64,000 nt of DNA, taken from Cyanidioschyzon merolae. Lineage: Eukaryota. The DNA lies in the NCBI GenBank assembly GCA_000091205.1, contig AP006490.2, one strand, 5' to 3'. The notes under the pieces are model-generated. The model saw nothing but the letters and a program-made list of their open reading frames with translations. It made no database searches and was not told the DNA's origin. This document shows, piece after piece, positions 5,868-53,199 of the stretch; position 1 is the first letter of the stretch, and each line of letters begins with the position of its first letter. The position numbers were made by a program, and so were the translations under genes.

Positions 5868-5971
5868 ATATGAGACTTGTCATAAGGAATATAAGTTTGA
5901 GCGTCTGTACCAGGCGATCATCCTTGACACATTACACGCATGTAAGTATCAAATATGACAGATTCTGTAAC

Positions 5972-6400
5972 ACCGGCGCATACTCTAAAGCTTGGATCCC
6001 TTTTCACACATCCTCAATAGCGGACTCTACGGGCTTTTTCTGCGACTGCTTGTTCTCCCCTCTCTTATCTCCTGCATTAAATACGCCGGTCTATCCCGTA
6101 CCTCCAGCTCCGTTGACTGCAGACGAAGGGTGTTGATAGCAGCAACAAAGTCTTCATTTAACCGTTGCTGAATGTCGTCGATGCATTTCATACAGAGGCG
6201 GTAGTTGCGATCTACGTATCGCTTTCCATTTTCAATTTCTTTTATACAGCCCAAGTGCGCCCTTCTCGGCGAAAACAGTCGACTGTGGTTAGCTGATCCC
6301 AGAAGTCCGCGACATGTCTGCGCGACACCCTGTAGCGCGTGGACGCTCGCACCATCGCTCGGATTGCACCCTAGACGAGTCCATGAGGCGCTCATCGATG
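5972..6400 (-). mobile_element. family 2 TnpB-like element, 3'-terminal fragment with conserved terminal module
   Basis: ORF 6027..6395(-) ends ...YRLCMKCIDDIQQRLNEDFVAAINTL, which is a Zn finger plus the RuvC-III DxNAAxNI motif. On the + strand, 5975-6085 (gcgcatactctaaagcttgg...cttttcacacatcctc...ctgcgactgcttgttctcccctctcttatctcc) matches the terminal module of the copies at 10.2, 23.4, 32.4 and 52.2 kb. Confidence 0.55.
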
Positions 6401-8136
6401 CCCTCCTCGGTTTCCGTACCTAGTATCGTACCCTACGATCGCATGCTACTTCTTGCCGATTTACTTGGCGAGAACTCTGTCCGCTACAGGCGCAAACGCC
6501 TCCTGTCTTATTCGGTAAGGGATTTGCAGCGCGCGGTCTTGTAAATAATGAAACGAGTTCCGGACGAAAATTTCGGGCTGAATTACAAGTCAGGCATACT
6601 CGATCCCTCTACGCTTCCTTCCCGCAAAGCGGTAATGCAAGCTCTACTGGAAGCGATCGCTTCAGTGACTCAGTTCCGAGGTCAACACATTTTTCCATGC
6701 AAATAGCAGAGATAGACCTCTTTGGTACCGTGTCCCGTTATAGGCGCCTTGCCGGTGCCGGATTCCGTCTCGTCGCTGGCCAATAACCGCGATGGATTCG
6801 TATTCCGAACGTAATCGATAATTCGATGCGACAAGGTCACTAGTATTTCCGCATAAACGTGTAAAGTTGGCGTCAACGGGTCACGTCGAGTTCTCTCCTC
6901 GTCAGTCGAGCGGCCGAATCGCTGCGGCGACGAGTTGCCCCGAAACTGAAAGATCGAAACCGTAACCACTTCGTGATTTGAGCCTGGTAAATGTAAGGAA
7001 CGAGATCAAATCGAGGTTTACACCCACGAATTTGTCGATCATAGTGGTCATCTTCAGAAACCGAAGTCGAGTGCATCGAGAATCATCTTCATGCCGGTTA
7101 CGCGGAGAATTACTCCCGCAAAAGATTTGAAGGAGCCACGCTGACCAGGCAACCAAATATCCGAAATCCTAGTAGGAATCGATAGGCCCTTGTTATTGGG
7201 CTTTGAATGTCGAGGCTGTATATTCCAGAATAGTTCGGAAACAAATTGAAAGGCGGGAACTGATCGAGGAATTCGGTTTTCCATTTTTTATGACAATTGT
7301 TTAGAGCTCATGTTTATCATATTCAGTAATGTGGCACAGCGTAAGCAAATGGGCATTCCATCTAGTCAAGGGCATTTGCGAGCGATCTATTTGCCGTGTC
7401 TTGAACAACGAATTCCGCAGATTGTAGAAACGGCGAAAGTTTTTTCAGATACCGACAAGAACGTCATCCAAAGGCAGCGGCCCTGTGCTAGTTGGCCTCG
7501 CTCCTCCAGAATACTACGCATGTATCGTCGATTTCGCATTAAAGCCGTGTCTGTGCGAGCGTATGTATGCATGTATGCATGCAGGGAGCCAGTGAAGTTA
7601 CGCGTGCCTATGCCCGAGGCGCAAATGGTGGCGAAAACCGACGCTACGCCTCCGGGCACGTAGGCGACTAAACCGAGAATCGCAGCGCACGCGTGACTCG
7701 CTCCCCGTTGGTGCGCTGTTTCTTCCGGACTTCCTATGGACGAGTGTCCGAATCGAAGGTTTTATTTTGGCCCTGAACCATCCGAGGAAACGAGAGCTCC
7801 ATTTTTTATTGGGCTAGCATTCGAACTCAATGCTTTTTATTCGAAGAGCAGCTGCAGGCTGTGAGTCGGTGACGAAAAAATTTTCTTGTTTTCAACGAGC
7901 ATCTCGACAAAGAGAAAGTCTCCAGTCATAAGTTTGTTGCAGTCTGCGGCCTGGCACGAAGCACATACTCATGCCAACTTTCTGCCCAGAGAACCAGACC
8001 TACTCGCGGAATGGTCCAACATGCTGCGAACGGACATGCTCAATGCTCTTTTCGCCCCCTGCGATACAAAGCAGAAACTCGAGGCCGGGTTGCGCGCTCA
8101 ACGCGCGAGCGGGTTTTGCTTCGTTGCCTTTTTGAT

Positions 8137-9183: not shown

Positions 9184-10173
9184 GTGGGAACACTGGGAAT
9201 TTCTACTCTATCGTCATCAGTGCTTTTTGAAGCGTTTTGCCAGAAAGCACTGAGATTTCCGAAACGCTAGCCTCTTGATACCCAGACCGGCCGCCTACGA
9301 TGCAGTGCGCAGGATGCTCTCTGCTCGGCGCAAGAGTGCGTTTTCAATACTGTGCACCCGTTCTACATTGAGAGCGCAAGCGTTCCCGGTTAGTAAGCAA
9401 CTTGCGCTTCGGGCAACGCGCATCCGACTATCATGGGCAAGGGGCCGAACTCGACGCGCTGTCGCTCTGATAGACGGCCAACGGCTTCAGACCGCGTCCC
9501 TGTGGAGTGCCTCGCCTGGAATAGGAACATAGGTCAAACACCACAGCAGAGTATGGCACCGGGCACCAGTTGCCGGTGCTTCTATGCCACCACAGGCGCA
9601 GAATTTTCCACCGTTCAAGGACGGCACTCGTTGGACTAGACTGTTTTCGCAGCGTAAAGCAGACAACGCAGCTCTCTCTTGAAGCGTCCTGTCGGGAACA
9701 CCGGCAGTTTCTCGCCGAATCCAGACCTTAAGGCAGATACTTTGTATGTGCTCATGGGTAAACACGGCCTTAGTCCAGCAGCCGCTCCAAGAGCCTTATC
9801 TGGTGTTGAGCATTAGAGCGCAAGCGCTGCTCCAGCTGTGCTCCTCGTCTCCGGAGCTGGCTGACCAAGCGCTCACACTCTCGATGGAGCAAGTCCTCTA
9901 CCGTTGCAGAATCACCAATAGGTTGAGGAGTTGCGTGTTGGTCCGAGCTTTCCAGCGACTGTTTCTGCGACTGCATACGACCTGGAGTGCGCAGGGAACC
10001 ACAGGCGCCACCTAGTCGGCCTGGCAGCGCTGACGCCCTGCGGGATAGCGATTTGAACGGCGGCGCAGCGAACACGCGTCTCCGATGATACCGCATCTTC
10101 AAGAGTTTGCGGTCGAGCATCGAACCGGAATCCGCCGCTACACGATACCTTCTATGTCAGAATAGAATGGAGC

Positions 10174-10720
10174 GGATCCTCTTCGCTAACTCTGGAGTAC
10201 GCACTAAAATTTTGCTCTCATGTCACCGTCATCAGAGGAAGCCTGTGTGGCCCTTATCTGCAACTGCTTCCTTTTCGTCTCTCGGATCTCCGGCTTTCAC
10301 CAGGCTGGTCTTTTATTTTCCTCTATATCTATTGCCAGCAACAGAAGCATACTCATGACTGCTTTAGAGTCCAGATTTCACTACTTCCGGCCGGCGTTCA
10401 TGCATTCCATGCACAGTAAAGCGGTTTGATTAAAGCTTCGTTTGCAACTTTCATGTGCTCTGAATATACCCTGGGTGTGCCGTTCGCAGCGGATGCGCTT
10501 GGCTGTATTCAGTTGTTCCCATACGCCCGCGGTATTTTGTCTTCCGAGGGCTACCAACTGGCGCGAGCGTACTCGCTTCATTGCTAGGTACGTCCACTTG
10601 TCGTGTGCAGAAACCGCTCTCGAAGGAGTGCTCGGTTTCCGAGCCCGGTGCCGTAAGATGCGATCGCCAGCTTTGTGTATATGAAATCCTCCACGAATTC
10701 TCTGCCCGCTGTGCACGAAA
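10174..10720 (-). mobile_element. family 2 TnpB-like element, 3'-terminal fragment with conserved terminal module
   Basis: ORF 10381..10716(-) ends ...HESCKRSFNQTALLCMECMNAGRK, the Zn-finger part of the family-2 consensus; the NAA motif has been deleted. The + strand 10176-10345 carries the conserved module (gctaactctggagtacgcactaaaa...catgtcaccgtcatcagagg...ctgcaactgcttccttttcgtctctcggatctccggcttt). Confidence 0.55.
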
Positions 10721-11559
10721 GATCATGCTATGCAATTCGTTATCTCAACGTTCGCTTCCGTGCATGCTTTTCATTTTCTGTATGTTGTGCCCATAAATTT
10801 TTCGGAGTCGTATGAAGGGCGCCAAGGCAGGTCATATACTCGTGAGCATCGAGTCCACACGGTCTACCCGCTTGCGAGAATGGATCCAAGGGTTCTTAGA
10901 CTCTACTCTGTTCCATAAGGTATTCAGTCCATTCTATCATTCGCTCCCTTATACTTAAGCCAAGATGACAGACGCGCAGGAAGAACTTCCGGCAGTTGCT
11001 GGAAGTCGGAGAAGCTCAATTTCGTGGTCCCCGAGCATCGTCGATTACCAAACAGTAGCGTGGAACTCGTCCGCGGGTCTCTCGGAAGCGCAGCTCTAGA
11101 GGTTCGCTCTACACTTACCCTGGCCGATGTAGATCGCATTGCGCAGCAAGTCCGCCGGGCCATGCATTTACCTTGCTCGTTGCTTACGAGCGTATCTGCT
11201 CGCCTGAACCGGGGTACGTTTCGGCAGTGGACGGGTTGTACAGCTTGAAAGACGTTCGCGTTCGCTGGCAATGGATAGTGTCTCGCTATCGATCTCGGTC
11301 AAGAATGTGACTGATCCTCGCGGAAGCACGAAACTCCCGTCTCTCTCCCCTCGATTCCACTATTTTCGCATCTTTCTTCGCTTTTCGCCACTGCCCCTTC
11401 CTACAGTGGATCGTAAGCCCTTCAATAGCACCAGATAAGACGCGCATCGCTCGCCGCACGAACTGCATGTCGTCGATCAACTGCTATTCTCCTTTGGTAC
11501 ACTCATTATTCAAGCAATGCATTGGCCAAGCATTTGCGCGGCAGCGCCCCTCCACAACA

Positions 11560-11800
11560 AAGCTGAAAAACACAGGTTCGATTCTGGAAGGATGCGCGAT
11601 TTCAGCATGCTCTGGGCAGGGACAAAAGAAGAGTGTGAATTTGAACGCGTGCATTGAATAATGATGGCGTTTACTCTATGAACACTCGTTCGAGGGCAGC
11701 GTGAATCATCTTGATCTCGGTGACATTGCGAATTCCAACGGGAAAGCGTCGAAAGCGCTACTCCGCAATGACAATCGAGAATCCTGAAACTGCACATGAA
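11560..11800. repeat. dispersed repeat (family 3), second copy at 53200-53470
   Basis: The block ctcgttcgagggcagcgtgaatcatcttgatctcggtgacattgcgaattccaacggg here matches cctcgttcgagggcatcgcgtatcactttggtttcggtgacgtgacgaattccatcgac at 53.3 kb. By eye this is about 70% identity over ~240 bp. Minus-strand translations are similar (GIRNVTEIKMIHAALER here, GIRHVTETKVIRDALER at 53.3 kb). Confidence 0.5.
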
Positions 11801-12200
11801 TCCGTAAGCCCCTCTAACTGTACTTTGAACGTAGGGGATGCACGTCTAAAAACGTTGGGTGATGTAATCGAAACGCAGAAAGCTAGCGAGCATTTGAATG
11901 TTCTATTTCAATCAGAGACGGCTGTTGGATGCAAAAGTTGCGGCTCGAGGTACCGTTTATCCGGCAGGCGATCCGAACGGGTGCGCATCCGCTCCGGCGG
12001 CGGCGCTTGCGATGTGTGCTAGAGACGGGACCCGCGCCGTGCGGCGCGTTCTCCGCCACGGAGCCCGTGGTCTCTGAGAGAGCGTAACGCTAACGGCTGC
12101 CAGCGGCTGAACGAGGAATTGCAGTCGTGCGTTTCGGGTGACAGTGTGTGCGTGTGTCGGGAGATTTCGTGCTAATCCAAAAGTGAAACGATCGAGCTCT

Positions 12201-17960: not shown

Positions 17961-20937
17961 TCATACGCACAACGGACTCCCTCTCCGCAAATAATCACAC
18001 ACGCTCCGACCGGTTCGCCCGAAGCAAGTCTCACTGACAGAAAGGAATCGACTTCCCTGTGCTTCAGACCGATCGCAACGTTCCAGGAAAGCTGTTATTG
18101 CGAATTCGATGGAAGACAGCCGTGGGTGAACTAGGGCTCTGTTTTTGTGACAGTATTCGATTGTTTTCAGGACCACACGAACAAACTGGTGAGAAATGAA
18201 GGCGCCCGTTATGGCTTCTATCGTCGCTTTTGCCTTTCATACGATGAAAAATCGGTGGTTTCCTACCACGGACCGAAAGCACGCTTTGAGAAAGCCGGCT
18301 CTATGGCGCAAAGCGAATACATTTGTTTCTTTCAGTGCTCCCCACCCAAATGAGTACTGTGGTACGACTGGCCAGAAGGGGAAAGGCAATCTTTCTGGCA
18401 CTGTCCAGTGAGGAGTACATGCTACAGGCAATTCGTCTACGATCTATAAGGTACGTTGCATCGTGATTTCGACTACATAACATACACCGCAGCGAGGATG
18501 AAATAATATTCTGTTGAAAGAACATAATCGAAGTCTCTGACTGCAGAGGTCTTGATTTGGTTTGAGATACAGGTAGCAGCCCCTATTCCAGATAAGCAGT
18601 GTACTGCGTGATGCCGTTCTCCTTGCACCTTTGAACGGGATGTTTTCGTCTTGATGTTCTTCGAAACATGTGCAGCAGCCAGCCCCGTGTCAGATCAAAA
18701 AGAGAGCACTTCACTTCTCTCTCTATTCCAGCTTTCCGATATTACCTAACTGCTTTACATGAACACTCTTGACATCCAAAGTGCAGCAACGCGCTGTTAT
18801 GGGTTCATACGTAGTTCTAGGCATCCAGGCCGTCTCCTGGACTATCTGCCTTAGGGCTTTGCTCCTGGAAATCTTCGCGTCACTGAAATTATGATAAATC
18901 CGCAACGCTTTCGAATAAGCGTTTGTAAAAGAATCGATTTCATTATCCAATTCATACGTTCTAGTCTCCAAGCTTCTCCTTTCCTTCCATGCAGCATGCT
19001 CGAATTTCAGAGTTTCCAAGCTTCGATCTCTCCCTTTCAGGGCGACTCGTGAGCGCGGCAATTGTCGCTGCTGGGTTGACAACGGAAAATCAGCCGACGA
19101 CTTTCCTTGAAAAATTCATTCCAAGCTCATGCCGAATGTTGACGTCGCTTCTTACGCCTAATTATTGGTACCATAATTTAGATAAATTGTCGTCTGTTTG
19201 TAGCTATCGAAGAAAGGGGCTTCCACAATAGCATGCTACCTGTTATGCGTTATGCTCCAAGTTGATTCCATGTCTTCTTCTTAGCTGGAAAGCGTCTTAG
19301 AATCGGAATGAACGCTTCCCAGTTATCCCTTCTGGTAGAGCGGGCGCCAATGATTTCAACGAAGGTAGCATAGACGAATCGAAATTCTTCGACTTGTCGC
19401 CCAAACTGGATATTCCTTGCCATAGGTATTCGATCATGGACACCATCGCACTCCACAAATAATCTGTCGAATGAGAGAGCATGCGCTTGCATGTGCAGCA
19501 CACAAAGTGCTCGCCGTTTGGATTGCCTAGAACAAGTCCACGATCGTACGGGTAAGGCACCGGGAGCGGAAGCAGTAATGGGCAACAAGGGTGAGCCTTC
19601 TGTACCCCTCAAGGACATCCAACGAGAAAGAGTGCAAGCGATCACGCGACGCTTTACTGCGCTCCGAGGAGTAGGTGTGGTGCGCATATAGGAGCACCTG
19701 ACAACAATGAAGTGGCACCGCTTCGAAGCGCTCACCAAGGCTCTATACTGGAAACATGGACATGTTTAGCGAAGCGTAGATCGCGTTTTTGGCTGGTGCA
19801 TCAAATGCATAGAGAACAGCCGGCAACTGCGAAAATGGGATTTTGATGCTTTTATCAATATCAGTTGATTGCTGGCAACGGAACCGGAGGGAATAGAGAG
19901 ACCGGCGTGTGTAGAGTTGGAAATAAGAGAGAGAAAAAGGAAGCAGTCGTGGGAAACCCCGCAAACGGTGGTGTTGATGAAGACCGAAGAGACTCAAATG
20001 CTAGTGTGTACACCAGAGTCCGATTCGTGGACTTGTTTCTTTCATTTTGACATGGGTGTAGGACTCTCCTGCCGAATACCGCACCCGTCGCAAACAAAAT
20101 ACGAGAGTCGGTACGCGCATTCAAAGTGCACGTGGTGCTGCGAATCTCCGATGCTCCCCTGTTCTGGAAACTCTATGCCCTGAAGCCTGGACGGCAACCT
20201 GGTTGGAAACCTATCTGTCACGAACAACCTTGCGAACTACGTTTAAGCCCTGCAGCATCACAGAAAAGCTGACTCAAATCCGAGCTGGAAACGTTGCACT
20301 CGGTGCAGTGTTGCTTTTTCAGGGTAAAGCGCGAAACAAGGTCGCGTGTGGGAGTTCACCAAAACGAACAGTATTCCATTCGAAAAACGTGCAAGTCGTT
20401 GCCATGTTGCTTGCAACAACACGTTGTGGCGTCTTTTCGGTTCGTTGCGCATAATCGCCGGTGTTAAGCGAGTTGCCTGGGTGAAGAGCGGAAATGTAAC
20501 GCGATACTAGCAACGATGCGTATCCCGTGAACGAGAGGCAGGTAGGAGCCCGCGGTCTCAAAGAGCAAGGCGATTTCCAAAATCAGGCCAGAACGATTTC
20601 TTCCAGCCAAATCTATCAACAGGCGAGAGCTTCATTGGCCGGGTGGGTATTAAACTCAACACACAACGGCCTCCGTGATCCACGACTCCCGTTCTGCATT
20701 CCTCGGAGGAACACTGGCTCGATCGATCTCGTGAGCCGCAGTGTGCTGTGCGCGAACGCACGCCGCTTCCGGTAACGCTGCCGGTAGGCCGATTTCGGGC
20801 GATGAAGCGGGCGCTGCGAACGCTTGCAACTGCGCCCACTTCTGACAGCTCTCTCGGCGCGTGAAAACTCGGGGCGACTTCCGGTCGCGATCGTACGCTT
20901 CAAGAGAGCCTGGGGCTAGAGGAGAAGCTGTAGACAC

Positions 20938-22071: not shown

Positions 22072-23368
22072 AGTCGAACTTGATACGTGGAATCACAGTC
22101 ATTTCAATGCGTGAAGGCGATATTTTTGGGTACTGGGCGAGGTCTCCATTGGCGACATCCTCGAAACCGTTACCACATCATGGAAATAAGATTCAGTCGG
22201 GCGGATATATCGGGGATCTGGTAGAGCATATGCGCGCTGCACGCGAAAGCAGCGCTTTTGCGTCGTATCCATCGTGCACTGCTGGGGCAAAGCATCAAGT
22301 TCCCGTAGAGTGTTTTCCAGATTCCATCGGATGCCGCGGCGTGTGCAGCGATGAGCGACAGTCTGTGTACGGGGTGTTCAGTTGCAGGCTGAAGATTGAA
22401 GCCGTTTACGCGTCCGTTAGCGTGTAAGGCACGCTCACGGAACGGCAGAGCAGCTCGGACCTCTGCGGTTGCTTTGCCTTGTGCAGCAGGAGTCTGGAGG
22501 ACCCCGACACATACGTTCCGACGTTTAGAGTAAAGACCAACCAGCCTCGCTAGCAAAACCGAGTACGGCAACGAAATCAACTTCGTGTCTGAATGAAATT
22601 TTTCAATGCTGCCGATTACGTAATATCCGATAACCTGTTACGTCGAACTGTACGAGATTCCCCGCATGTATCCTCGTCGCATAGCGCGTCTCGCGATAAC
22701 TGTTATGCCAGCGCTCTGCACGTGTGTACGTGCAATGGCTCGAATTTCCTTCGAAACCAGTCTGAAAGGCTGCATGATGCTGAACTTTTCACACCATCAC
22801 TTTTTGAGTTTCTCACAGTTCAGTATTTGGTGCGAGAGCAACGACCAGCCAGATGGCTCGCGAAACTCAGGACGGCACCGGTGAGGTCATCTGGCCAGCC
22901 TCGGACGCCGAATTCGGCATGCGGCTTTTACAATGATCCGGAGACTTCTCCAACGTGAGATTTTGCTGGTAACGCCATCAAGCTACGCAATCGCTTGTCC
23001 ACTGTCATGTGCCCCGAAATGAGCAGCTTCTCGACAGCCGCAGAGGCTGGCTTCGTACGCGAAGACTGTGTTCAGTATGTTGACAAATCAGTTGCGGAAA
23101 TTTTCATGTCACGTTGCCTGGCTCCACTCAGTTCACGGGAGAAGAAGATGATAGTTATTGCCGGAGGTTGCCAAGAGCCCGGTCTCACGGCGATTTCGTA
23201 CGGGACGGTGCTGGACGCAAACCCATTCAGTGAGTTTATCTGGCGAGGTATCTGTGCAAGCCCTCCGAAGTTAAAAAAATGACGTTTGCTAAACCCGCAT
23301 CGTTGCGCGCTCGAAAGTGCGGCTTTGCGATCATGAAATCTTCGGCAGAATGAAATGGAACTGATTCA

Positions 23369-24130
23369 GTTCGTAAACTCGGGAGTACACACCAAAACTT
23401 GATTTTCTTGTCACCATCATCGAGGTCAGTCTGTAGGGGCATTGTCTGGAACTGCTTCCTTTTCCTGTCTCTTATCTCCGGTTTTCAATACACCTGCCTT
23501 TTATTTTCATCCAACTCTATTGGCATCTGCAGAACGATATTCGTAACAGATTTAGTGACCAGATTTTGCTGCTTGCGGCTATGCGTCGAGCGATTTTTGG
23601 TGGTCTCCATTCAGTACGCAGCGTGGGCATGTTGCTGAAAGGCGGAAGAGTTTCGATAAGAGGAAATCTTTGACCAGGAGAGATAGGACTTCGTTCTCGC
23701 CTACAACTAGACACTGCTGTGGTATGGTCAGCAATGCCGCAACGCTGGAATATCGAGTATATTCACTGTGAGCGATATTCTTTGGCAAGCACTGAACGGT
23801 AGAGGTGCTCCATGATGCGATCTCGCTGCGCATATTTGCCGAGGGAGGCATAGGCGCGAGCGCACAAACACGCCGCTCCCTACGTTTACTCGACTTTTTT
23901 GACCAAGAACGCACCCATCGACAGAACGATCGGAGCAGCGCTTCGGCGATACTAAATGGTAGTGGAGCCTTGAAGACCACGTTCTGGCAGACACTAACCT
24001 GGCGTGCGCTGCGCTGCCCGACCAACTGCCCTCGAGCACCATGCAGCGGAGACGAGAGCTGCGCAACGTCTTCGCGGCACCAGCAGCATACGCAGTTTCG
24101 AATGATACGTTGAATAGCAATAGCCACGGA
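23369..24130 (-). mobile_element. family 2 TnpB-like element, 3'-terminal fragment with conserved terminal module
   Basis: ORF 23579..24127(-) ends ...LFRLSATCPRCVLNGDHQKSLDA, a CxxC Zn finger. The + strand 23372-23560 carries the conserved module (cgtaaactcgggagtacacaccaaaac...cttgtcaccatcatcgagg...ctggaactgcttccttttcctgtctcttatctccggtttt...tctattggcatctgcagaacg). Confidence 0.55.
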
Positions 24131-31427: not shown

Positions 31428-32381
31428 GCTGTACTGTCCGCTGGGGGCACACTGCGGCGCTTCTCTGTTACTGGCGTCGCTTAGAGTATGACATCGAGGG
31501 TAGCTGTTGGCGTCTCCGAGCGTTTTCCGCTTTATCCAGCGTTCACGATCTATCTACAGTGTAGCGCCCCAAATTCTGAGAACTGGAAAGAAGCGAGCGC
31601 AAATGCGTTCCCTTTCTGTGAGCCCTCTTGGCTGCTGCGAGACAACAGCAAAGCCACACTGAAAAGGCAGAGCTCCGACAACATTTTGGGGTCTTCCAAA
31701 ACTTGATAGGATCCGTGCGCGCCCCAGATAAACGATTTTACCACGTATTTCACTTGTGACAGTGGACGTTTTCACGGGAATCTCCTCGAAGCACTGGGCA
31801 GCCGCGTCGGGGTACGCACTTGCATGTTTTGGCGATGCCCGATCTACACAGGGCTCGTTGCATCGAGTCGCATGGCGTCGGTCCTCGCAGATAGCATCGT
31901 AAGATGAGGCATCTTGAGGCAGCTTCAGTCTTGACTGGCCTCCGTGGAGTGGTTGGCATTTGCCGGTGTCACGATCGAATGTACATGCCAAGGTTCAGCG
32001 ATCGCAGATACATCTTTGTGACTGCTGGTTCACTCAGAGCATCTTGCTGCTCTCCGTTCGCTACGTACAATGCATACTGATTGAATCACCGGGGCAAAAT
32101 GAATCAGTTCTGTCATGTTGCTGGCATCGCGCAACCCTAACTCGCGCGCCGTGCGTCGTGTCGCATCCGGTCGCTCTACAGCTGGCAAGGGACTATGCAG
32201 GCAGCAACTGCACTGCTGCTGGCGACGAGGCCTATGCCAGCCCGAGGAGGATTCTCTGCTACAGGTTCTGGTCAGACGATTTTCATCGTATGCTGCATAA
32301 AGAAGAGGGAGCTACATCATTAATTTGATGTTTTTTTAAGAAATACAACCACGCCAGGAGAAAGGTAAAAGTTCCCTGAAC

Positions 32382-33170
32382 ACAAGCGCATACGATAAAG
32401 TTTGGGTTTCTTGCCACTGTCATCAGCACTAGCCTTTGGGGGGGGGGGGGTTCTCTGCACCTGCTTCCTTTTCCGCTCTCATATCTACGGCTCGAAGTAT
32501 CCCGATCTCTCGCTACCTTCTAGCGCCGTTCTCAGCTGTCCTTAGATATTGATTTCGGCGTTAAAGTCCCGACTTTGCCGCTTCCAACTGTTGTTCACGC
32601 AATGCATACACAGGAAAAAGTTGCAATCTACGCTTCGTTCGTTTTTTATCATCTTCATACACAGCCTGGTTGCCCATTTGCAGTGTTGAAAATTGACTGT
32701 GATCTGATGTTCGCTTGTGTCGAGCACAACGTCCGCACCGAGAACCGCCCTGTGGCACGTAAACGCACGCTTCGTCGCTCAGTATCTGCCCTTGATGGAT
32801 ACAGAAGGCTTCTATCGATGCTGCGCTACTTTCCGCACCCGGTTTCGTACCCTGGGATCACGTGCTTCTTTGTGGAGACCCCCTCGACGAGTACGCTGTC
32901 CGCTGCAGAAGCGAAACGCTATTCTACTCGATAGAGGATTTGCGGAATGCAGTGTTGTCCGTTGAGCCACAAGTACCGAGAAGAAGATTCAAGCGGGGGC
33001 GAAAGCCAGGAAATTTCGATTCGTTTATGCTCCCTTTGTGCAAAGAGTTGACGCGCTCCCCACTGGAAGTGGTTGATGGTGTGGCTGAAGTCTCAGACCA
33101 AGACCCTTGCCGTGCAAAAAAGAGGGTCAGAAAACCTCCGGGCGCATATCCCGTGGCGGGGATCATGATG
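32382..33170 (-). mobile_element. family 2 TnpB-like element, longest fragment (C-terminal ~200 aa equivalent + terminal module)
   Basis: ORF 32542..32727(-) ends ...HCKWATRLCMKMIKNERSVDCNFFLCMHCVNNSWKRQSRDFNAEINI (Zn finger + RuvC-III). Upstream, 32924..33166(-) contains LLLGTCGSTDNTAF, which is RuvC-I-like. The + strand 32384-32530 carries the conserved module (gcgcatacgataaagtttgg...cttgccactgtcatcagcac...G13 run...ctgcacctgcttccttttccgctctcatatctacggctcg). Confidence 0.55.
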
Positions 33171-34177
33171 GTGCGGATTGCCGTTTTCTCGATTGGTACA
33201 GAGATGGTGGTAGATTTTTCGGAGCGATCCGATTATTTGGCGCGGAAAGTTCAGTAAACATTGGGTACGAATGTGCGAAGCAGTTGTCAACGGCCGAGGT
33301 CGCGTTATGTACGTCCTCATTCCAGCGGCGCGGACTGCTGTGCCTACGAGTCGCCTTGACACAGGCAGATCAATATTTTACAGAACGCTCGCTTCGGGCA
33401 TGCCAAATGTGAGGAAAGGAAGAAGATTGGATGCTCATGTGCTTACTAATTGGATGATGATTCGATTACTTTAAAAGTCCCTGTTCGAGAGCGTCGCAAT
33501 GCACCTTGATTCCGGTGACCAAACGAATTTCAGCAACAGAACATCCAAGGGGCCATTTCCAAAAAGCAACATACAGACAGGAAACCTAAAATTACGTACG
33601 AATCCCTAATCACCTATTAATACACTTCGCGTGTCCACTGTTCAAGAAGAATGTTCGGAATATAATGAAAATTCAACAACAGAGCGAGCAGTTCAGTCTT
33701 CCATTGTAGCCTGACAAATATGCACTGCCTACCAATCGATCACCAGCGGATACATTTGGGAGAAAATAGTCCGTTCGTGCGAACTGAAGTTTGCCGAGCC
33801 CGCCGTGAGTGCCAACCACGACACCTGCAGCGCCACCGCTGGCGGAGCATGAAGAAAAAACAGCTTTACCCGTTCCCTGTCGGACTTTGATTCGACAAGT
33901 GCAGCGTTTGGTTGCACATTTACGCGCTTGGAGGTCATTGCGCTCGCTCGTACCCTTCATTTTTATAAACGAACCTGGTACCCGTCCACAACTCGCCGCT
34001 GAAGCCGTGCGACGCGTATCGCAGCCGATGGCGGCATCATGTCCAGTCCGCGCCGGGCGTCTGGCGCGCAGGCGTCGCTCCAGCCGCTCGAGGCGCTTGC
34101 CAACAGATTGAGGCCGAGCGCTGAGCTCCGAACTTCAGCCGCAACAGCGATACGACCTTTGGGCTCGTTTACGAAAC

Positions 34178-35422: not shown

Positions 35423-37646
35423 ACTTTGCTTGATCAGAGGAGCTGAGGCCACATTGAACAATAACCAAGTCTTACGCTTATGAGCACACTCCATGGTATG
35501 TGTACTGGATTCGGGACAGAAGCGCTAGAGGGGCGTGTGCTCCACCTGTTGGCGGGCCACGGAAAGAGCGTGCCAGTAACGTTGCCGCCGGTACTGCTGA
35601 CGGAGATTTTCGTACTCATACATGTGGACGCACAGCTTAGCCTCCTGTTCAGTAGGGCGATCCCTCAGTATCCATTTATCAGGTAGTTGAATTGGTATCA
35701 CCATCGTGGAGCCGGATGCACTCGGCCTATAGTATCTGACAGGGGAACAGTTTCATGCGATGCACGAACTTGCGTAAAAAATGCCCTCTCCGGTCTTTGC
35801 GAAAGCTCTTGTCTATTACGAGAACGGCGCTCCGGCTCATTGCATCATACCGGCGCTCAACTTTGCGTCTGGGCCTCGATCAGAGCGGTTTCGCTGCATA
35901 TCAGGAGTGCTTACGTACAAAGCAAATTTCATATTGAAATGGAGCGGATCTATTCAGCTAACTTGGGTATACGCGCTGAAGTTTTGGTTTCTTCCCACTG
36001 TTACCAACACCGGCGTTTGCGAGCTTTATCTGCAACTGCTTTATTTTCTCCTCTCTAGGCTTCGACATAAGATACACTGGTCATTCATTTGCCTCCAGAT
36101 CCGATTCAGCAGACGGATGATGTTGATGGCATGCTAAAATCCTGATTTCACCGCTTTCGACAGTAGTCCACATATTCAACGTGCCGGCTGTATACACGAC
36201 TGCCTTGCATACCATTTTCATCTCTATACACGGCATCGGTGCGCCCTTCGCATCTTTAGCACTTGCCCGTTGTCAGCTGTTCCTGTGTATCCATCAAACC
36301 TCCTCCGATGGTCGCTGCATGGCGCGTGAACGTCTACTTTATCGCTCGGCAGAAGTCCTTGACGGTTCCAGGAGGTGTTCGTGCATGCTTTCCTCCGTTT
36401 CTGCGCCAGATGCCATGCCTACGATCAGGGGTTTCTTCTGTAAGATCCCTTGGGCGGGTACTCTGTGTTCTGCTTGCGCAAGCGCACGCTGTTCCATTCG
36501 ATGACGCAACATTCGCCTTCTTGCACGCTCTTCATTTTCTCAAAACTCTGACTACAAAGCGTTGGCTCAAGCATGATGGGCATCGAGTTACATAAGACAC
36601 TCGCGGGTATCCTATCCATACATTCCACCCGAAAGTGATGCTGCGACGAAGGCTTCTGCAGAAGCCGTCTGTTTCGCTCGCTTCGCGAACGATTCTTTTA
36701 TTCCTTTCCTTCCTCTGATACTAGATTTAGGGGCACTCGAGCACAAGTTCTGGCGTTGGGCACAAGTCGGAGGGTTCGAAACCCGTGACCCCAAAGCGTT
36801 GCAGTTTATCGCAGGTCGGACCGCTCTTCAGGTATCATGGTGGCGCATGTGTGGCGCGTCGCTCTCCCGCGTTCCGACCTATGCAGATCGCGTTCGGTGG
36901 CAACTTTACGATGCTATGTGTCTGTATTAATCGTTATTCCTCTCGGAATTTCTCCTCCTAAGAAAGGAAGCGTATGAGCTCTAAGAGAGCCGTGAATCGT
37001 TTTGTGACGTTTGCGTTCGATGTCGGCGGGTGTCCGCACGAGATCGGTTTTGATTGAGGACAATATATCTCCTCCACGTTGCGCGAACCTCCCTTTCCCT
37101 CCTCCTGCTTTGCCATAGCATTTTTCTTGAACTACAGTCTCTTTTTTCCTACCGCGGTTCATGAGCGCTTTAACAAAGGAGGGCATCGGTTCGATCCTTC
37201 TTTACCCGTCAAGTGCATGCGCCAAACGATAAAGCAAGCCGCCATGCGCCACAGAGCGGCGCATGGAACAGAATATGTGGTGGACAGATCAGAGCACATG
37301 ACCATAGTCAAGTGTTAGGGATGCGAAGGGCGCACAAAGACTGGTTACCCTGAGAATGAAAATGGCTAGCCAGGCATAGCCCCCAGCTTTCAGATGTACA
37401 TTGCATGTGTCGAGAACATCAGGCAGCGGCGCAAACCGGACCTTTATCACTACTATCGATATCCTTCGACAAATGAGAACGGCGCTCGAGCGACACGAGA
37501 GACCGATGTATTTCAAGCCGCAGAGAATGAAAAGGAAAAGACAGCAGTCGCGGATAACCATCCCAAAGCCTTCTGCATGTGACACTGGGGAAGACCCGAA
37601 GTTTAGCGTGTGACCGCACGAGTTAGCTGAGTGGACCCGTTCCATT

Positions 37647-38384
37647 TTAGCCTGACATGGGTTTAAAGCGACGCGCAACTGGCTTGACGACGAACTGGTC
37701 TACAAGCGGCGCCAAGAGCAATGCACCCGCAATGCGAAACGGACGGGAGAAATTATTCAACAACCACATGCCCGCCACAACTTTCAAAAAGTTTTGCCAG
37801 GTTAGTGGTGCATTATCTGTCGCCCTTTTGAAAGTGATAAGTGCGATAACGAAGCTCGCTGAATAAGTGATTGCGTCGAAAAAGCCGTACGCGAGGATTG
37901 CAGCGAGCCCGTATGAACGCAGCCGTTGAAGCGCTGTTTCCTTCTCCGGGAACAAGTTAGTGAATGCACCCTGCAACCGCTTCCAAAACCCCTGTCGTTT
38001 CCGCGCTGTGTTCATGGCCTGCTCCGGAGCGCTGTCTCTCGGTCTGACAGCGTTATTCGACTGCTCCAAGCGCCGTTGCTCCAGCTGCTCAAGGTACGAC
38101 AAAGGGCGCGTACTAGTCGAGCTTGAGGAGCCATCCTCCATAGGCGGACGCCGCGTACTTTCAAGCCATTTCATATATTGGTCGGTTTGGCCGGTGCATG
38201 AAAGTCGCAACGCAAACGGAGGCGTCCTGTGGAAGCCTCGTGGAAGCTTCCGGCGAGCGCACTCTGAATCCACTGTTCGGTGTCCGTGCACGATGAAGTC
38301 GTTACGCGCTTGTTTGACTGAGGAAAACCTTTTTGCGTGCAGCGGCGCTGTGAACTGTGTTGCCGTGTTCAGAATCAAGAACAT
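37647..38384 (-). CDS. predicted multi-pass membrane protein of unknown function
   Basis: The 245-aa ORF has a charged, S-rich N-terminal half. The C-terminal half is hydrophobic (LRSYGLAAILAYGFFDAITYSASFVIALITF...LKVVAGMWLLNNFSRPFRIAGALLLAPLVDQF). A weak resemblance to DUF1279/FAM210-type proteins is not established. Confidence 0.3.
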   Translation of the reverse strand: MFLILNTATQFTAPLHAKRFSSVKQARNDFIVHGHRTVDSECARRKLPRGFHRTPPFALRLSCTGQTDQYMKWLESTRRPPMEDGSSSSTSTRPLSYLEQLEQRRLEQSNNAVRPRDSAPEQAMNTARKRQGFWKRLQGAFTNLFPEKETALQRLRSYGLAAILAYGFFDAITYSASFVIALITFKRATDNAPLTWQNFLKVVAGMWLLNNFSRPFRIAGALLLAPLVDQFVVKPVARRFKPMSG

Positions 38385-39836: not shown

Positions 39837-40318
39837 CAGCCATACTGTTAAAAAGACAACTCAGGAACACGAAACGCTCTATCGAACTGGAACGGGTGGC
39901 GGCTTCTGAAAGTGGTCCATTGCCGCGGAAAACAGCTGGACTATGTCACGGCTGCTGGCGATTTGAGAAACAGCCGCGGCGAGCCCTGGCGCGTCCAGGA
40001 TCCGCGTTGTCCTTTTCGTCTATAATTGAGAGTCAGATTAAAATAGGACATTTAGCGACACGTTTTTTCCAGCATATTCTTTTTCTTTCGAACCATGTTG
40101 TTAGATACACAGCCTCGATACTCGAATTGCAGCAATAAGGGCCTACGGATTCATAGACCTTTTTGACGCTCTCGGTCTTCATTTTCGAAAAGTGCGAGCG
40201 ACTCTTTGCCACTGGAAATCGTTCCGCGACGGGAATCAAGATGATGCGCGGTGCCTTCGAACAAGGTTTCGTAAAATAACCAATTCCATGATCAGATTCA
40301 TTTGTGAAATCATCGACG

Positions 40319-40351
40319 CCTCTCCTCTCCTCTCCTCTCCTCTCCTCTCCT
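40319..40351. repeat. (CTCCT)n microsatellite, about 6 units
   Basis: ctcctctcctctcctctcctctcctctcc seen directly in the sequence. Confidence 0.9.
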
Positions 40352-41596
40352 TACCTATCGCCTGCAACAAGCAAGCCTTCTTCAAGTGCACGATCTTTTT
40401 TCTCATGAATACCCTTGGTCACGGTAATTCGCGACCCTGGAGGGACAAGCGAAGAACTCGACGTCGTCTCATGAGGACTTTTTACCATCTCACGCCGGAA
40501 GTTTTCTGTATATGTACCGTCAAATAATCGATTCCATTCGAAGCACAAATCCTCCCCTTTTTGTGGCCAAAGAAGACACTCTATTCGACAGCAACAGAAT
40601 GATAGATTTCACGGGAAATGCTCCCAGAGGTCCCTGGATCTTCTGTTTCCATGGAACGGCGCCTCGGATTCGGAACTGAGCTATCGCAGCGATCGCATCC
40701 AGTGGGGACCGCATAAGCGCTTTGCACGATGTGAGCATAGACGGATCGAAATTTCTTGACTTTTACCCAGAATGAAATTTTTTCAGCTACTTGTTCCTTC
40801 GTGATAATCATCACTTTCCACAAAAATCCTCTATTGAATCGAACAGCTTGCGCTTTCATGTGCGGCAGGTAATGTTCTGGCGGAGAATATAGCCCCGGAA
40901 AGCCCATTAACGCACGATACAGCATCGGGCGAGGAAACGGAGGAGCGTATCCAGAGAACCTTTCTGTACTCTTCTATTGCATGCACGGAGTGGTATAGCA
41001 AGCGTTCACGTGCCAACGGTCGATCCCGGAGAAAAACGAGGAGTCGTGGACAAATGATAAAACCTGAAGACAGTCAAGTGCCAACTGTGCAAAGGCGCGC
41101 ACCGGGGTTGCATACAAATAAGTTGACAATGGCAAGCGATGTGTAGATCGCAGCTACCACCTGTGAATGAAATGCGTTGACAACTGCGGGAATCAGCGAA
41201 ATCGGGAAATTAACGCTGCTACCAACATCCTTCGAATGCTGACTACTCGGCGCACGATAAAACCTATGAAACGAGCAATATATCCGAGAAGAATGGCTTA
41301 TGGAACTTGGAAGCAGAGCGTGGTATGATGGATGGTTCACTGTGCGCTGATATCAAGCGCGCTGTTGTGGAACGATGGCCTGCGTCAACGTCTTGACAAA
41401 TTGATACGAATAACAGCTCGCGTTGTACGAACAGGAAGCATTCACTTGTCAGAGTGAGCGTGCATGAGTTGCTCATAGCCGCACCGGCGTCAAACGGGGA
41501 AGAATCGCTCTTCGCTGAACTCGAACACCTGGCTGACAGACCCTACAGCAAAAGAACGTACAACTGAGACGCGCCCCGCGTGAAACTGTTTCTGCT

Positions 41597-52206: not shown

Positions 52207-52220
52207 GCGAATGCATGTAG
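50358..52220 (+). pseudogene. TnpB/Fanzor-like RuvC nuclease remnant
   Basis: RuvC-I is NDFVVGADLGNTNVMTVAVAKCG. The zinc-finger region is SCIDHELGCKVQKVEMEKC. RuvC-III is MEFVNRDFDAATDIWRYAVPERR. A frameshift lies near 50650, and the reading frame is truncated after ...ANFLEIPHSECM. Confidence 0.7.
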
Positions 52221-52830: not shown

Positions 52831-53199
52831 CATGTTGGAGAAAACGATGAGCGTTTTCGATCCGTTGACGCCCCGACGTGCAAAGCTATGACGCACGCGT
52901 CACTGGAAGTGATCGCTGCGATGACTGATGACTATGCCCAAGACCCTTTTCCATGCAAACAGAAGAGAGGAGAGCCTCTGGGAGCAGATCCTGCGAGATG
53001 TATCATGTTTTTGTCGAATGTCGTTTCTTCTGTGACCATAAAGAAAGAAAGATTCGTATTTTGAACGAAATGGATTATTTGGCGTGAAAGGCTAAGTGAA
53101 CTTTTGGTATAAACTTGCGAACAAGTCTTCAGGAGACCACAACGTCGAATGTTTTTCGCTCGTCGATCCACCTGCTCGAATTGTGACGCCACGAGTTGC

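What the first reader, a model, noticed from the sequence alone, without database searches (positions are those of the whole stretch)
10174..10345. Conserved ~170-bp non-coding module at the 3' end of every family-2 copy: candidate omega-RNA scaffold / transposon right end
Immediately downstream of each family-2 ORF stop lies the same non-coding block. On the + strand it reads ...gctaact-(ctgg/tagg)-agtac(g/a)cac(t/c)aaaa...ttgtcacc(a/g)tcatc(a/g)agg...ctg(c/g)aactgcttccttttc-x-tctct(c/t)(g/a)(g/t)atctccgg(c/t)ttt.... Copies are at 5975-6085, 10176-10345, 23372-23560, 32384-32530 and 52208-52370. In bacterial TnpB and eukaryotic Fanzor systems the guide RNA (omega RNA) is transcribed from exactly this position, overlapping the 3' end of the nuclease ORF and running to the element boundary. 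Conservation of the non-coding tail that is at least as good as that of the coding part is what an RNA scaffold would produce. The copy at 32.4 kb carries a G13 homopolymer insertion inside the module.
Basis: inference. Interest (0 to 1): 0.8.

Follow-up and report, generated by a model that had tools for sequence, protein, structure and literature searches.

The report
Fossil right end of Fanzor transposon
The repeated 170-base block is the decayed tail of an old, internally deleted mariner-type jumping gene of the red alga Cyanidioschyzon merolae that once carried a Fanzor RNA-guided nuclease; only its outer ~80 bases match the probable guide-RNA scaffold of intact relatives, and here it is a dead relic.

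Summary
The window is Cyanidioschyzon merolae 10D nuclear DNA. The block is real and is repeated 8 times in the window, not 5. It is not a selected non-coding module.

"Family 2" is a 1,381-bp element bounded by TA and ~27-bp inverted repeats. Its consensus encodes residues ~11-227 of a Tc1/mariner-type DDE_3 transposase, joined out of frame to the last ~190 residues of a Fanzor1 nuclease. It is therefore a ~2.1-kb internal-deletion derivative of a composite transposase + Fanzor1 transposon. Intact 3,476-bp versions occur in hot-spring metagenomes.

About two thirds of the reported block (10207-10345) is former coding sequence for the Fanzor C-terminal tail. The rest is stop codon, a short 3' region and, just outside the reported coordinates, the right inverted repeat.

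All 33 full-length copies examined are dead. Divergence is flat along the element and across codon positions, and the copies show no consensus structure or covariation.

In 12 relative lineages (most with an intact nuclease gene) the right end does carry a right-end-specific ~25-nt block. It also carries a sense-strand stem (UACGCC/GGUGUA, with a covarying seventh pair) that closes the repeat at the element boundary. This mirrors the SpuFz1 omega-RNA.

This is a new member of a known kind, of low-to-moderate interest.

The parts
10146..11926 (-). Family-2 copy B, the whole element from TA to TA, of the 'long' subtype (1,781 bp). It keeps the left end plus the transposase N-terminus, and Fanzor residues ~314-765.
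   Evidence: nhmmer; tblastn with the L063 Fanzor gives residues 314-451, 453-571 and 606-620 at 11449-10480; end mapping
10146..10147 (-). Flanking TA (target-site dinucleotide or terminal dinucleotide) at the right end of copy B
   Evidence: The sequence reads ga-TA-CCTTCTATGTCAGAAT. TA flanks both ends in the consensus and in the intact copies L063-L066, whose flanks diverge right after GGTGTA.
10148..10174 (-). Right terminal inverted repeat of copy B (consensus CACCCATGTCAGAATAAAATGGAACAG)
   Evidence: Left and right ends of the consensus match at 26 of 28 positions, then symmetry stops; alignment of the ends of 26 copies
10175..10193 (-). Spacer between the inverted repeat and the TACGCC motif. 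It is the distal part of the predicted terminal hairpin, and its length varies between lineages (the whole TACGCC-to-GGTGTA interval is 22-67 nt).
10194..10199 (-). Decayed copy (TACTCC) of the right-end-specific hexamer TACGCC, which in related lineages pairs with the terminal GGUGUA
   Evidence: Mapping; the hexamer is invariant in 12 lineages
10200..10224 (-). Remnant of the ~25-nt right-end block (consensus GAAGAGACCCAAACTTTAGAGTG). It contains the ancestral stop codon TAG at 10204-10206.
   Evidence: The block is coding in some lineages and 3'UTR in others.
10207..10344 (-). Former coding sequence of the Fanzor C-terminal tail. The ELEGxERPxYL motif remnant lies at 10297-10329 and the basic, NLS-like RKRK cluster at 10252-10284.
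   Evidence: Consensus translation; homologues P0035, P0037 and P0039 and the intact Fanzors keep ELxGxERPxYL plus a basic cluster
10345..10380 (-). Remnant of the RuvC-III motif RNRDFNAAINIL
5933..7303 (-). Family-2 copy A (1,371 bp); right-end block at 5933-6129
18680..20060 (+). Family-2 copy C (1,381 bp); right-end block at 19863-20061. This is the best preserved end (TACACC...GGGTGTA).
23335..23583 (-). Family-2 copy D: a solo right end, 5'-truncated
32344..33724 (-). Family-2 copy E (1,381 bp); right-end block at 32343-32543, with a G13 run at 32438-32450
35919..37187 (-). Family-2 copy F (long subtype, 5'-truncated); right-end block at 35929-36119
37173..37665 (+). Family-2 copy G (5'-truncated, inverted next to F); right-end block at 37462-37665
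40023..41229 (+). Family-2 copy H. Its 3' end, including the block, has been replaced by another repeat.
52190..53570 (-). Family-2 copy I (1,381 bp); right-end block at 52191-52376. The terminal repeat is damaged where it abuts a family-1 copy.

Best explanation
The block is the right-terminal ~200 bp of a dead, non-autonomous DNA transposon.

Shown:
- The window is C. merolae 10D.
- Family 2 is a 1,381-bp element with TA flanks and ~27-bp terminal inverted repeats.
- Its consensus encodes residues ~11-227 of a Tc1/mariner-IS630-type DDE_3 transposase. This stops right after the second catalytic 'MDNIAFHKS' motif.
- That part is joined, out of frame, to the last ~190 residues of a Fanzor1 nuclease: the RuvC-II glutamate, the C4 zinc ribbon, RuvC-III 'RDFNAAINIL' and a basic tail.
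- Intact parents exist in hot-spring metagenomes. They read TA-TIR, a 317-aa transposase, a 765-aa Fanzor1, 40 nt, TIR-TA. They total 3,476 bp and sit at four or more different insertion sites.
- Family 2 is therefore a ~2.1-kb internal-deletion derivative. It was amplified in trans and has since decayed neutrally.

Anatomy of the reported block, read on the nuclease strand: Fanzor C-terminal tail codons (ELEGxERPxYL, then an NLS-like RKRK cluster), the ancestral stop codon, a short 3' region, and the right inverted repeat.

Inferred: in the live ancestor, the last ~60-110 nt was transcribed with the nuclease mRNA and processed into the omega-RNA scaffold. This stretch comprises a ~25-nt right-end-specific block, then UACGCC, then a variable hairpin containing the inverted repeat, then GGUGUA at the very boundary. 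The flanking host sequence would have served as guide, as in SpuFz1. There a two-stem, 75-nt scaffold spans the stop-to-IR region and stem 2 abuts the guide. The nuclease would cut the emptied donor site after mariner excision and so promote repair from a copy that still carries the element.

In C. merolae family 2 the nuclease is deleted and the RNA motifs are eroded, so the module does nothing today.

Probabilities: anatomy and origin about 0.9; omega-RNA role of the terminal ~80 nt in live relatives about 0.55-0.6.
For: Organism: exact matches to C. merolae 10D proteins.

Copies.

Consensus coding content: DDE_3 PF13358 at 40.8 bits (E = 2.5e-10, profile positions 3-117 of 146) and PF07282 at 30.5 bits. 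BLASTP to the intact L063 transposase covers residues 11-227 (41% identity, E = 8e-56). BLASTP to the L063 Fanzor covers residues 537-756 (42% identity, E = 6e-40).

Composite parents: L063-L066 and L072 carry DDE_3 and Fanzor genes in tandem, and L063-L066 have four different flanks.

Fanzor identity of the parent: the signature D433...T611 T612..C615xxC618...C688xxC691..R703 D704. The top five Foldseek PDB hits are all Fanzor1 (SpuFz E = 1.9e-8, then PpFz and GtFz).

Ends: TIR and TA.

Neutral decay: flat conservation along the element; mismatch rates of 0.26/0.25/0.27 at codon positions 1/2/3; no ORF longer than 184 aa.

Right-end RNA-like element in relatives:
- The block and TACGCC are conserved whether coding or 3'UTR.
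- Cross-lineage identity is 0.47 in the last 30 nt against 0.26 further upstream.
- RNAalifold finds only the UACGCC/GGUGUA stem.
- The seventh pair covaries: UA x5, CG x3, AU x2, GU x1 and one mismatch; permutation P ~3e-4.
- The stem is in the sense MFE in 10 of 11 lineages and in the antisense MFE in 0 of 11.
- The block is absent from left ends.
- A profile built from these relatives' right ends, without family 2, hits the family-2 consensus right end at E = 5.6e-11.

SpuFz1 layout: PMC10432273.
Against: - No RNA data are available, so transcription and processing of the right end are untested.
- Six of the seven stem pairs are invariant. Covariation rests on one pair, and the lineages are not phylogenetically independent.
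- An inner inverted copy of the terminal motif could also be a protein-binding site.
- One left end (L071) also has GGCGTA 13 nt inside its repeat.
- No convincing conserved stem-loop 1 was found in the ~25-nt block.
- Individual window copies are too decayed to match the relatives' right-end profile (best E = 0.027, and over the TIR only).
- The TA duplication is not proven, because no empty site was found.
- The AlphaFold model is mediocre (pLDDT 63.6), and PDB sequence searches found nothing.
Confidence: 0.8

Rival explanations
1. The whole ~170-bp block is a non-coding RNA scaffold kept by selection in C. merolae. It would be transcribed from each copy and used by a resident TnpB/Fanzor nuclease, for example as 'ghost' omega-RNA donors for another Fanzor such as family 1 / CMe-1A.
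For: The position is right for an omega-RNA (PMC10432273; PMC10530073). SpuFz1 accepts omega-RNAs from ORF-less ghost loci. C. merolae has another Fanzor1 family, with some ORFs reported intact (PMC3627910). Family 1 in this window is Fanzor1-like. The WSV486-like repeats are reported to be transcribed (PMC1955436).
Against: Two thirds of the block is former coding tail. Conservation equals that of the rest of the element and is lower in the real non-coding part. RNAalifold gives 0 pairs on 37 copies. The consensus hairpin is kept in 64.7% of cells against 64.1% in shuffles. TACGCC and GGTGTA are eroded in nearly all window copies. The family-1 Fanzor is a different lineage, with no tblastn match at E <= 1e-3 to the family-2-type Fanzor.
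Confidence: 0.04
2. A purely DNA-level transposon end. Even in live relatives, the right-end block and the TACGCC motif would be subterminal transposase-binding or 3'-end-formation (polyadenylation or termination) signals, and no guide RNA would be made from them.
For: TIRs and a cognate DDE_3 transposase are present. TACGCCN is an inverted near-copy of the terminal TACACCN, so co-variation could reflect shared protein recognition. One left end also carries GGCGTA. Single-sequence fold z-scores are weak (-1.8 for 54 nt and -0.6 to -1.0 for longer windows).
Against: The block is confined to the right end, next to the nuclease stop, whereas transposase sites are normally present at both ends. 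The constant G at position 4, and several other G.U pairs, make the stem form only in the nuclease-sense RNA (10/11 against 0/11 lineages). The stem ends exactly at the boundary, where a guide would start, as in SpuFz1 stem 2. The intervening sequence can be replaced entirely (L073) while both hexamers stay.
Confidence: 0.3
3. A host-domesticated intergenic element. Family-2 ends would have been retained because they act as promoters, terminators or insulators between C. merolae genes.
For: Copies lie in intergenic spaces of a compact, almost intron-less genome.
Against: Copies occur in both orientations relative to neighbouring genes. Decay is uniform and neutral across the element and across codon positions. 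There are truncations at arbitrary points (copies D, F, G, H) and insertions into other repeats.
Confidence: 0.02

Closest known systems
SPu-1 / SpuFz1 Fanzor1 element of Spizellomyces punctatus and its 'ghost' loci (Bao & Jurka 2013, PMC3627910; Saito et al. 2023, PMC10432273)
   Same: The Fanzor1 gene sits between ~30-bp inverted repeats with TA-type ends. [quoted passage not shown] Its last stem abuts the guide and has a variable distal part. Many ORF-less derivatives keep the ends.
   Different: The parent here also carries its own DDE_3 transposase gene upstream of the nuclease. The nuclease clade is very divergent, with no PDB sequence hit and only fold-level similarity. The derivative is a transposase-N-terminus/Fanzor-C-terminus chimera rather than an IR-to-IR ghost. 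The C. merolae copies are far more decayed (~27% from consensus). No RNA or activity data exist.
Mariner/Tc1-associated Fanzor1 elements (Bao & Jurka 2013; Jiang et al. 2023, PMC10530073, Fanzor1c clade)
   Same: An autonomous Tc1/mariner-type transposon encodes both a transposase and a Fanzor. The guide RNA is reported to overlap the right inverted repeat.
   Different: I did not place this Cyanidiales clade in their phylogeny. Red-algal examples are only mentioned there as 'rhodophyta'. The right-end motif described here (block + UACGCC...GGUGUA) is not described in the papers I read.
CMe-1A Fanzor1 family of C. merolae, the 'WSV486-like' 253-copy repeat (PMC3627910; Nozaki et al. 2007, PMC1955436)
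   Same: Same genome, same protein superfamily, and old, dispersed, mostly dead copies. Family 1 of this window looks like it.
   Different: Family 2 is a different element. It is 1.38 kb rather than ~3 kb, it has TIRs (CMe-1A is reported to have none), it carries a transposase remnant, and its Fanzor part does not match family 1 by tblastn. I could not compare with the Repbase consensus.
ISDra2 TnpB omega-RNA (IS200/IS605)
   Same: The guide RNA is derived from the 3' end of the nuclease gene plus the transposon right end, and the guide is the flanking DNA. In several lineages here the scaffold overlaps the end of the ORF.
   Different: The bacterial element moves by a Y1 (HUH-type) transposase and has no TIRs or TSDs. 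Its omega-RNA has a pseudoknot. Here the carrier is a DDE cut-and-paste element.

Membership tests
Fanzor1 / TnpB RNA-guided nuclease (protein) | The signature D-X(125-275)-[TS][TS]-X-X-C4 zinc ribbon-X(5-50)-RD (Bao & Jurka 2013) | tested here: not met
   The family-2 consensus keeps E-H-L-T-T, CxxC...CxxC and RNRD. It lacks the RuvC-I aspartate and everything upstream, because the homology starts at Fanzor residue ~537 (short type) or ~314 (long type). The intact relatives P0040-P0050 meet the full signature.
Fanzor1 / TnpB RNA-guided nuclease (protein) | A match to the Pfam OrfB zinc-ribbon / Cas12f1-like TNB domain (PF07282) above the gathering score | tested here: met
   28.0 and 30.5 bits against a cut-off of 26.3 for two consensus versions
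Fanzor1 / TnpB RNA-guided nuclease (protein) | The fold of solved Fanzor1 structures | tested here: met
   This holds for the intact relative P0041 only. The AF2 model (pLDDT 63.6) gives five top Foldseek PDB hits that are all Fanzor1: SpuFz at E = 1.9e-8, then PpFz and GtFz. The model is weak in the RuvC part.
Tc1/mariner-IS630 DNA transposon | A DDE_3-type transposase with an N-terminal HTH | tested here: met
   PF13358 at 40.8 bits (cut-off 28.6) plus weak HTH_Tnp_Tc3_2 and HTH_32 matches on the family-2 consensus. The match is truncated at profile position 117 of 146. Full 317-326-aa genes are present in L063-L066 and L072.
Tc1/mariner-IS630 DNA transposon | Terminal inverted repeats | tested here: met
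   ~27-34 bp in the family-2 consensus and in L063, L067, L068 and L069
Tc1/mariner-IS630 DNA transposon | TA target-site duplication | tested here: inconclusive
   TA is present at both ends of the consensus and of all intact copies, and flanks diverge immediately outside it. No empty site was available to separate a duplication from terminal bases.
Omega-RNA (guide RNA of OMEGA / Fanzor systems) | Encoded at the 3' end of the nuclease gene and running to the transposon right end | tested here: met
   By position and homology, the block lies between the RuvC-III motif and the right TIR, and it matches the right-end profile of related, mostly intact elements at consensus level.
Omega-RNA (guide RNA of OMEGA / Fanzor systems) | A conserved secondary structure supported by covariation | tested here: not met
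   In the window and related family-2 copies, RNAalifold gives 0 pairs and there is no excess pairing or covariation. In 12 relative lineages there is one 7-bp stem with a single covarying pair and clear strand asymmetry, which is suggestive only.
Omega-RNA (guide RNA of OMEGA / Fanzor systems) | A discrete transcript with a variable 3' guide taken from flanking DNA and bound by the nuclease | not testable with these tools
   No RNA-seq or biochemistry is available here.
Omega-RNA (guide RNA of OMEGA / Fanzor systems) | A cognate intact nuclease in the same genome | tested here: inconclusive
   None of the 33 full-length family-2 copies is intact. A protein search with the family-2 consensus found only fragments and no NCBI C. 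merolae protein. The whole C. merolae genome could not be scanned.

The most novel reading that the evidence does not exclude
The right-end motif found here is a ~25-nt block, then UACGCC, then a variable hairpin holding the inverted repeat, then GGUGUA at the boundary. On the most novel reading it is the omega-RNA scaffold of an uncharacterised Fanzor1 clade found so far only in C. merolae and hot-spring metagenome contigs (apparently Cyanidiales). That clade rides an autonomous, apparently still mobile Tc1/mariner element in hot-spring red algae. The ~1.4-kb deletion derivatives would have spread as guide-RNA-bearing hitch-hikers, and a few less-decayed C. merolae copies might still supply guides to a resident nuclease. 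If so, this would be a compact Fanzor/guide pair from a thermoacidophile, and a natural case in which nuclease-less derivatives exploit the homing system.
Probability: 0.1. Interest if true: 0.6.

Novelty: new member of a known kind. Interest (0 to 1): 0.3.

Why it matters
For this window it mostly settles an annotation question. About 17% of the 64 kb is relics of one mariner/Fanzor transposon, and another ~10% is a second Fanzor family. This contrasts with a genome described as almost transposon-free.

The wider interest lies outside the window. Following the relic led to intact composite transposase + Fanzor1 elements in hot-spring metagenomes. It also led to a right-end-specific RNA-like motif that ends exactly at the element boundary. 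Together these give a concrete, testable candidate omega-RNA for a very divergent Fanzor1 clade from thermoacidophilic algae.

The case also illustrates a general caution. Equal conservation of a 'tail' and a 'coding part' among dead copies says nothing about function. Comparison with live lineages is what separates the scaffold from the former coding tail.

Tried and rejected
- tblastx of the window against itself was too noisy to define frames; hits appeared in all frames. Consensus building worked instead.
- Looking for intact family-2 proteins in the 5.8-billion-protein set gave only 106-216-aa fragments.
- RNAalifold and pair counting on 37 family-2 right ends gave nothing. This is uninformative about the ancestor, because the copies decay neutrally.
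- An nhmmer profile of the relatives' right ends against the window gave no significant hit for individual copies. Only the consensus matches.
- Rfam gave no match for the window block or for the L063 right end.
- PDB sequence searches with P0041 and with a 10-sequence profile gave nothing. Only the fold search worked.
- I looked for a conserved stem-loop 1 in the ~25-nt block. The small stems were inconsistent between lineages, so no claim is made.
- I considered that family 1 plus family 2 form one ~3.4-kb element. I rejected this because their relative order and orientation differ between loci and copy I simply abuts a family-1 copy.
- I considered a trypanosomatid, oomycete or other origin before the exact protein look-up identified C. 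merolae.
Full report
ORGANISM AND CONTEXT. Three long ORFs of the window are identical to annotated proteins of Cyanidioschyzon merolae strain 10D. They are XPF (BAM79736, 2387-5425), a CSP41-like protein (BAM79746, 34178-35422) and PPi-phosphofructokinase (BAM79750, 46914-48710, minus strand). All lie on a 739,753-bp record. The window therefore comes from a nuclear chromosome of a nearly intron-less red alga. Between the housekeeping genes lie two dispersed repeat families.

THE OBSERVATION. A profile of the last 204 nt of family 2 finds the reported block at all five coordinates given. It also finds the block at 19863-20061 (+), 35929-36119 (-) and 37462-37665 (+), with E = 1e-33 to 1e-43. 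A ninth family-2 copy (40023-41229) has lost this end. The G13 run is at 32438-32450. So the repeat is real and far beyond chance.

The block sits at the left end of each copy as written on the + strand.

WHAT FAMILY 2 IS.
- No copy has a long ORF.
- I aligned seven window copies, then fetched 59 related loci from metagenomes with the consensus C-terminus. This gave 33 full-length copies of ~1.38 kb, and all are degenerate; the longest ORF is 184 aa.
- The majority consensus of 26-32 copies resolves into two reading frames.
- The first two thirds translate to a Tc1/mariner-IS630-type transposase fragment. Pfam DDE_3 scores 40.8 bits (E = 2.5e-10, profile positions 3-117 of 146), with weak Tc3-type HTH matches.
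- The last third translates to a TnpB/Fanzor C-terminus. Pfam PF07282 scores 30.5 bits, and the RuvC-II 'WEHLTT', CxxC...CxxC and RuvC-III 'RNRDFNAAINIL' motifs are present.
- The ends are TA|CACCCGTGTCAGATTAAAATGGAACA...TGTTCCATTTTATTCTGACATGGGTG|TA. This is a ~27-bp terminal inverted repeat with TA outside it.
- Three window copies measure exactly 1,381 bp from TA to TA.

THE PARENT ELEMENT.
- A search with a full-length relative found in the metagenome loci (L030, 712 aa) returned eleven Fanzor-like proteins of 551-863 aa.
- The loci of one of them (P0041, present in 81 sample blocks) show a 317-aa DDE_3 transposase gene. A 765-aa Fanzor gene follows it on the same strand. Four copies have different flanks, which diverge exactly outside ...GGTGTA and TACAATC.... 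That element is 3,476 bp.
- L072 has the same architecture.
- The family-2 consensus aligns to transposase residues 11-227 (41% identity, E = 8e-56) and stops at the 'MDNIAFHKS' motif. It also aligns to Fanzor residues 537-756 (42% identity, E = 6e-40).
- 3,476 minus 1,383 bp is the ~2.1 kb expected for a deletion from mid-transposase to late Fanzor. Family 2 is therefore an internal-deletion derivative.
- The 'long' subtype, which includes copy B of the finding (1,781 bp), keeps Fanzor residues ~314-765.
- Other derivatives exist: Fanzor-only elements of 2.6-3.0 kb (L067, L068, L069) and a transposase-N-terminus/Fanzor fusion (P0047).
- The relatives carry the full D...TT..C4...RD signature.
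- Sequence searches of the PDB find nothing. However, an AlphaFold model of P0041 (pLDDT 63.6) retrieves only Fanzor1 structures as significant Foldseek hits: SpuFz at E = 1.9e-8, then PpFz and GtFz.

ANATOMY OF THE REPORTED BLOCK (copy B, minus strand; and direct reading).
- 10345-10380: RuvC-III remnant.
- 10297-10329: ELEGxERPxYL remnant.
- 10252-10284: basic RKRK cluster.
- 10204-10206: ancestral stop TAG.
- 10200-10224: right-end block.
- 10194-10199: TACTCC, a decayed TACGCC.
- 10175-10193: spacer.
- 10148-10174: right inverted repeat.
- 10146-10147: TA.

Homologues from other organisms keep 'NAAINIL..ELxGxERPxYL' followed by a KKRK or RRRRR cluster. So 10207-10345 was coding for a conserved motif plus an NLS-like tail. 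The NLS role is inferred from the composition and from the reported NLS acquisition of Fanzors (PMC10530073). The block is thus about two thirds former coding sequence.

IS IT UNDER CONSTRAINT IN THESE COPIES? No.
- Match to consensus is 0.70-0.78 along the whole element. It is 0.73-0.75 in the coding part of the block and 0.55-0.69 after the stop.
- Mismatch rates are equal at codon positions 1, 2 and 3. They are 0.265/0.257/0.277 in the transposase part, 0.261/0.248/0.269 in the Fanzor part and 0.248/0.254/0.262 in the tail. After the stop they are 0.31-0.34. This is neutral decay of dead copies.
- RNAalifold on 37 non-redundant right ends predicts no pair.
- The consensus hairpin is paired in 64.7% of cells against 64.1 +/- 1.2% in shuffles.
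- The consensus 54-nt post-stop RNA folds at -16.7 kcal/mol with z = -1.8. Longer windows give z = -0.6 to -1.0 and the opposite strand +0.8.
- Rfam has no match.

WAS IT AN OMEGA-RNA IN THE LIVE ELEMENT? Dead copies cannot answer this, so I compared the right ends of 11 related lineages (most carry an intact nuclease gene) plus the family-2 consensus.
- All have TACGCC, then 22-67 nt that usually contain the inner part of the inverted repeat, then GGTGTA, after which the flanks differ.
- Just upstream of TACGCC is a block, GA(A/T)(G/C)ACCC.A.GCTTTAG.AGAA. It is conserved whether it is the end of the ORF (stop 5-9 nt before TACGCC in L063, L030, L014, L027) or 3'UTR (stop 23-51 nt before it in L018, L067, L068, L070, L073, L074).
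- Cross-lineage identity anchored at TACGCC is 0.26 at -90..-61, 0.27 at -60..-31 and 0.47 at -30..-1. The C-terminal tail codons upstream are not conserved as nucleotides, but the last ~25 nt are.
- Left and right ends are symmetric only over the ~27-34-bp repeat. The block and TACGCC are right-end-specific. There is one exception: a GGCGTA inside the left end of L071.
- UACGCC pairs with GGUGUA, including a constant G.U pair. RNAalifold on 11 lineages predicts exactly this stem and nothing else.
- The seventh pair covaries: U-A five times, C-G three, A-U two, G-U one, and one mismatch. A permutation test gives P ~3e-4, uncorrected for relatedness.
- The stem is part of the MFE fold in 10 of 11 lineages on the nuclease-sense strand and in 0 of 11 on the antisense strand.
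- A profile of these right ends, built without family 2, matches the family-2 consensus right end at E = 5.6e-11. It matches the consensus left end over the repeat only.

This layout matches the one solved Fanzor1 guide RNA. [quoted passage not shown] It has two stems and a 6-nt linker. Stem 2 abuts the 14-15-nt guide and has a protein-free, variable distal part (PMC10432273).

I therefore rate an omega-RNA role of the terminal 60-110 nt in the live elements at about 0.55-0.6. In copy B only ~10146-10224 is homologous to it.

MECHANISM (inferred from TnpB/Fanzor biology, not shown here). The DDE transposase excises and reinserts the element at TA sites. The nuclease mRNA 3' end is processed into a scaffold plus flanking-sequence guide. 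The nuclease-RNA complex then cuts donor sites that have lost the element, which favours repair from a copy that still carries it. Deletion derivatives such as family 2 kept both transposase-binding ends and were mobilised in trans. They have no nuclease, and in C. merolae all are now eroded.

WHAT IS KNOWN.
- Fanzor1 in C. merolae was reported as CMe-1A: ~150 copies, ~3 kb, 'no TIRs' (PMC3627910).
- The genome paper describes 253 copies of a 3.2-kb WSV486-like repeat and eight bacterial-like transposase relics (PMC1955436).
- Family 1 of this window is Fanzor1-like and is probably that repeat. Family 2 is a different element.
- Fanzor-mariner associations, guide RNAs overlapping the right repeat, and ORF-less 'ghost' derivatives are all established (PMC10530073, PMC10432273).
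- Hence the rating: a new member of a known kind.

VERDICT. The block is the fossil right end of a mariner-type, Fanzor-carrying transposon. Most of it is former coding tail. The candidate guide-RNA scaffold is its outer ~80 nt including the inverted repeat, and nothing indicates present-day function in C. merolae. Interest 0.3.

Noticed in passing
window 3-2112 (+), 15709-17874 (-), 50220-52190 (+): Family 1 (~2.1 kb, 75-77% pairwise identity) is itself a Fanzor1-type element. Its three-copy consensus translates to DPGNTNIMTI (RuvC-I), VVAYGAGRW, VDEFRTS (RuvC-II) and NRDFNAATNIW (RuvC-III). It is probably the CMe-1A / WSV486-like 253-copy repeat of the literature. It does not match the family-2-type Fanzor by tblastn.
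   Followed up: partly
window ~52185-52200: Family-2 copy I and the 3' end of a family-1 copy meet tail-to-tail. The family-1 copy is cut short relative to the other two, and the family-2 terminal repeat is damaged, so one element inserted into or next to the other.
   Followed up: partly
window 44874-45143 (+): An isolated DDE_3 transposase relic lies outside any family-2 copy (tblastn to L063 transposase residues 136-225, 31% identity, E = 5e-5).
   Followed up: no
window 27088-27291, 49393-49565 (direct); 41245-41350 (inverted): A third small dispersed repeat (~75-82% identity). The copy at 41.2 kb replaces the 3' end of family-2 copy H. The copy at 27.1 kb overlaps the start of the ORF 27056-28408.
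   Followed up: no
window 61981-62259: A tandem array of about six 46-47-bp units (TATCTATGCACGCATATCCCGAATCATGAATAAAGTGCTGTGCTG) lies just downstream of the 2,226-aa C2-domain ORF.
   Followed up: no
L063-L066 (P0041 loci), L072: An apparently live composite transposon in hot-spring metagenomes: TA-TIR, DDE_3 transposase (317-326 aa), Fanzor1 (765-769 aa), a 40-nt tail, TIR-TA. The identical protein is present in 81 sample blocks and at four or more insertion sites. The two readable left flanks both end in TC before the TA.
   Followed up: partly
L069 406-2997 (P0047, 863 aa): A Fanzor ORF whose N-terminal ~100 residues look like the HTH part of the transposase (..AISTLSRWN..NPFLTRKELK..). 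This is another deletion derivative, here fusing the transposase N-terminus in frame to a full nuclease.
   Followed up: no
L030 419-853: A second, unrelated TnpB/Fanzor-like C-terminal fragment (..NRDFNAAKNISRCF..) lies directly upstream of the 712-aa Fanzor ORF. The main ORF of L030 has a frameshift before its second zinc-ribbon CxxC.
   Followed up: no
L071 ~90-136 (minus strand): The left end of this Fanzor-only element also has GGCGTA 13 nt inside its inverted repeat. It is the only left end seen with the otherwise right-end-specific hexamer, and it lacks the upstream block.
   Followed up: partly
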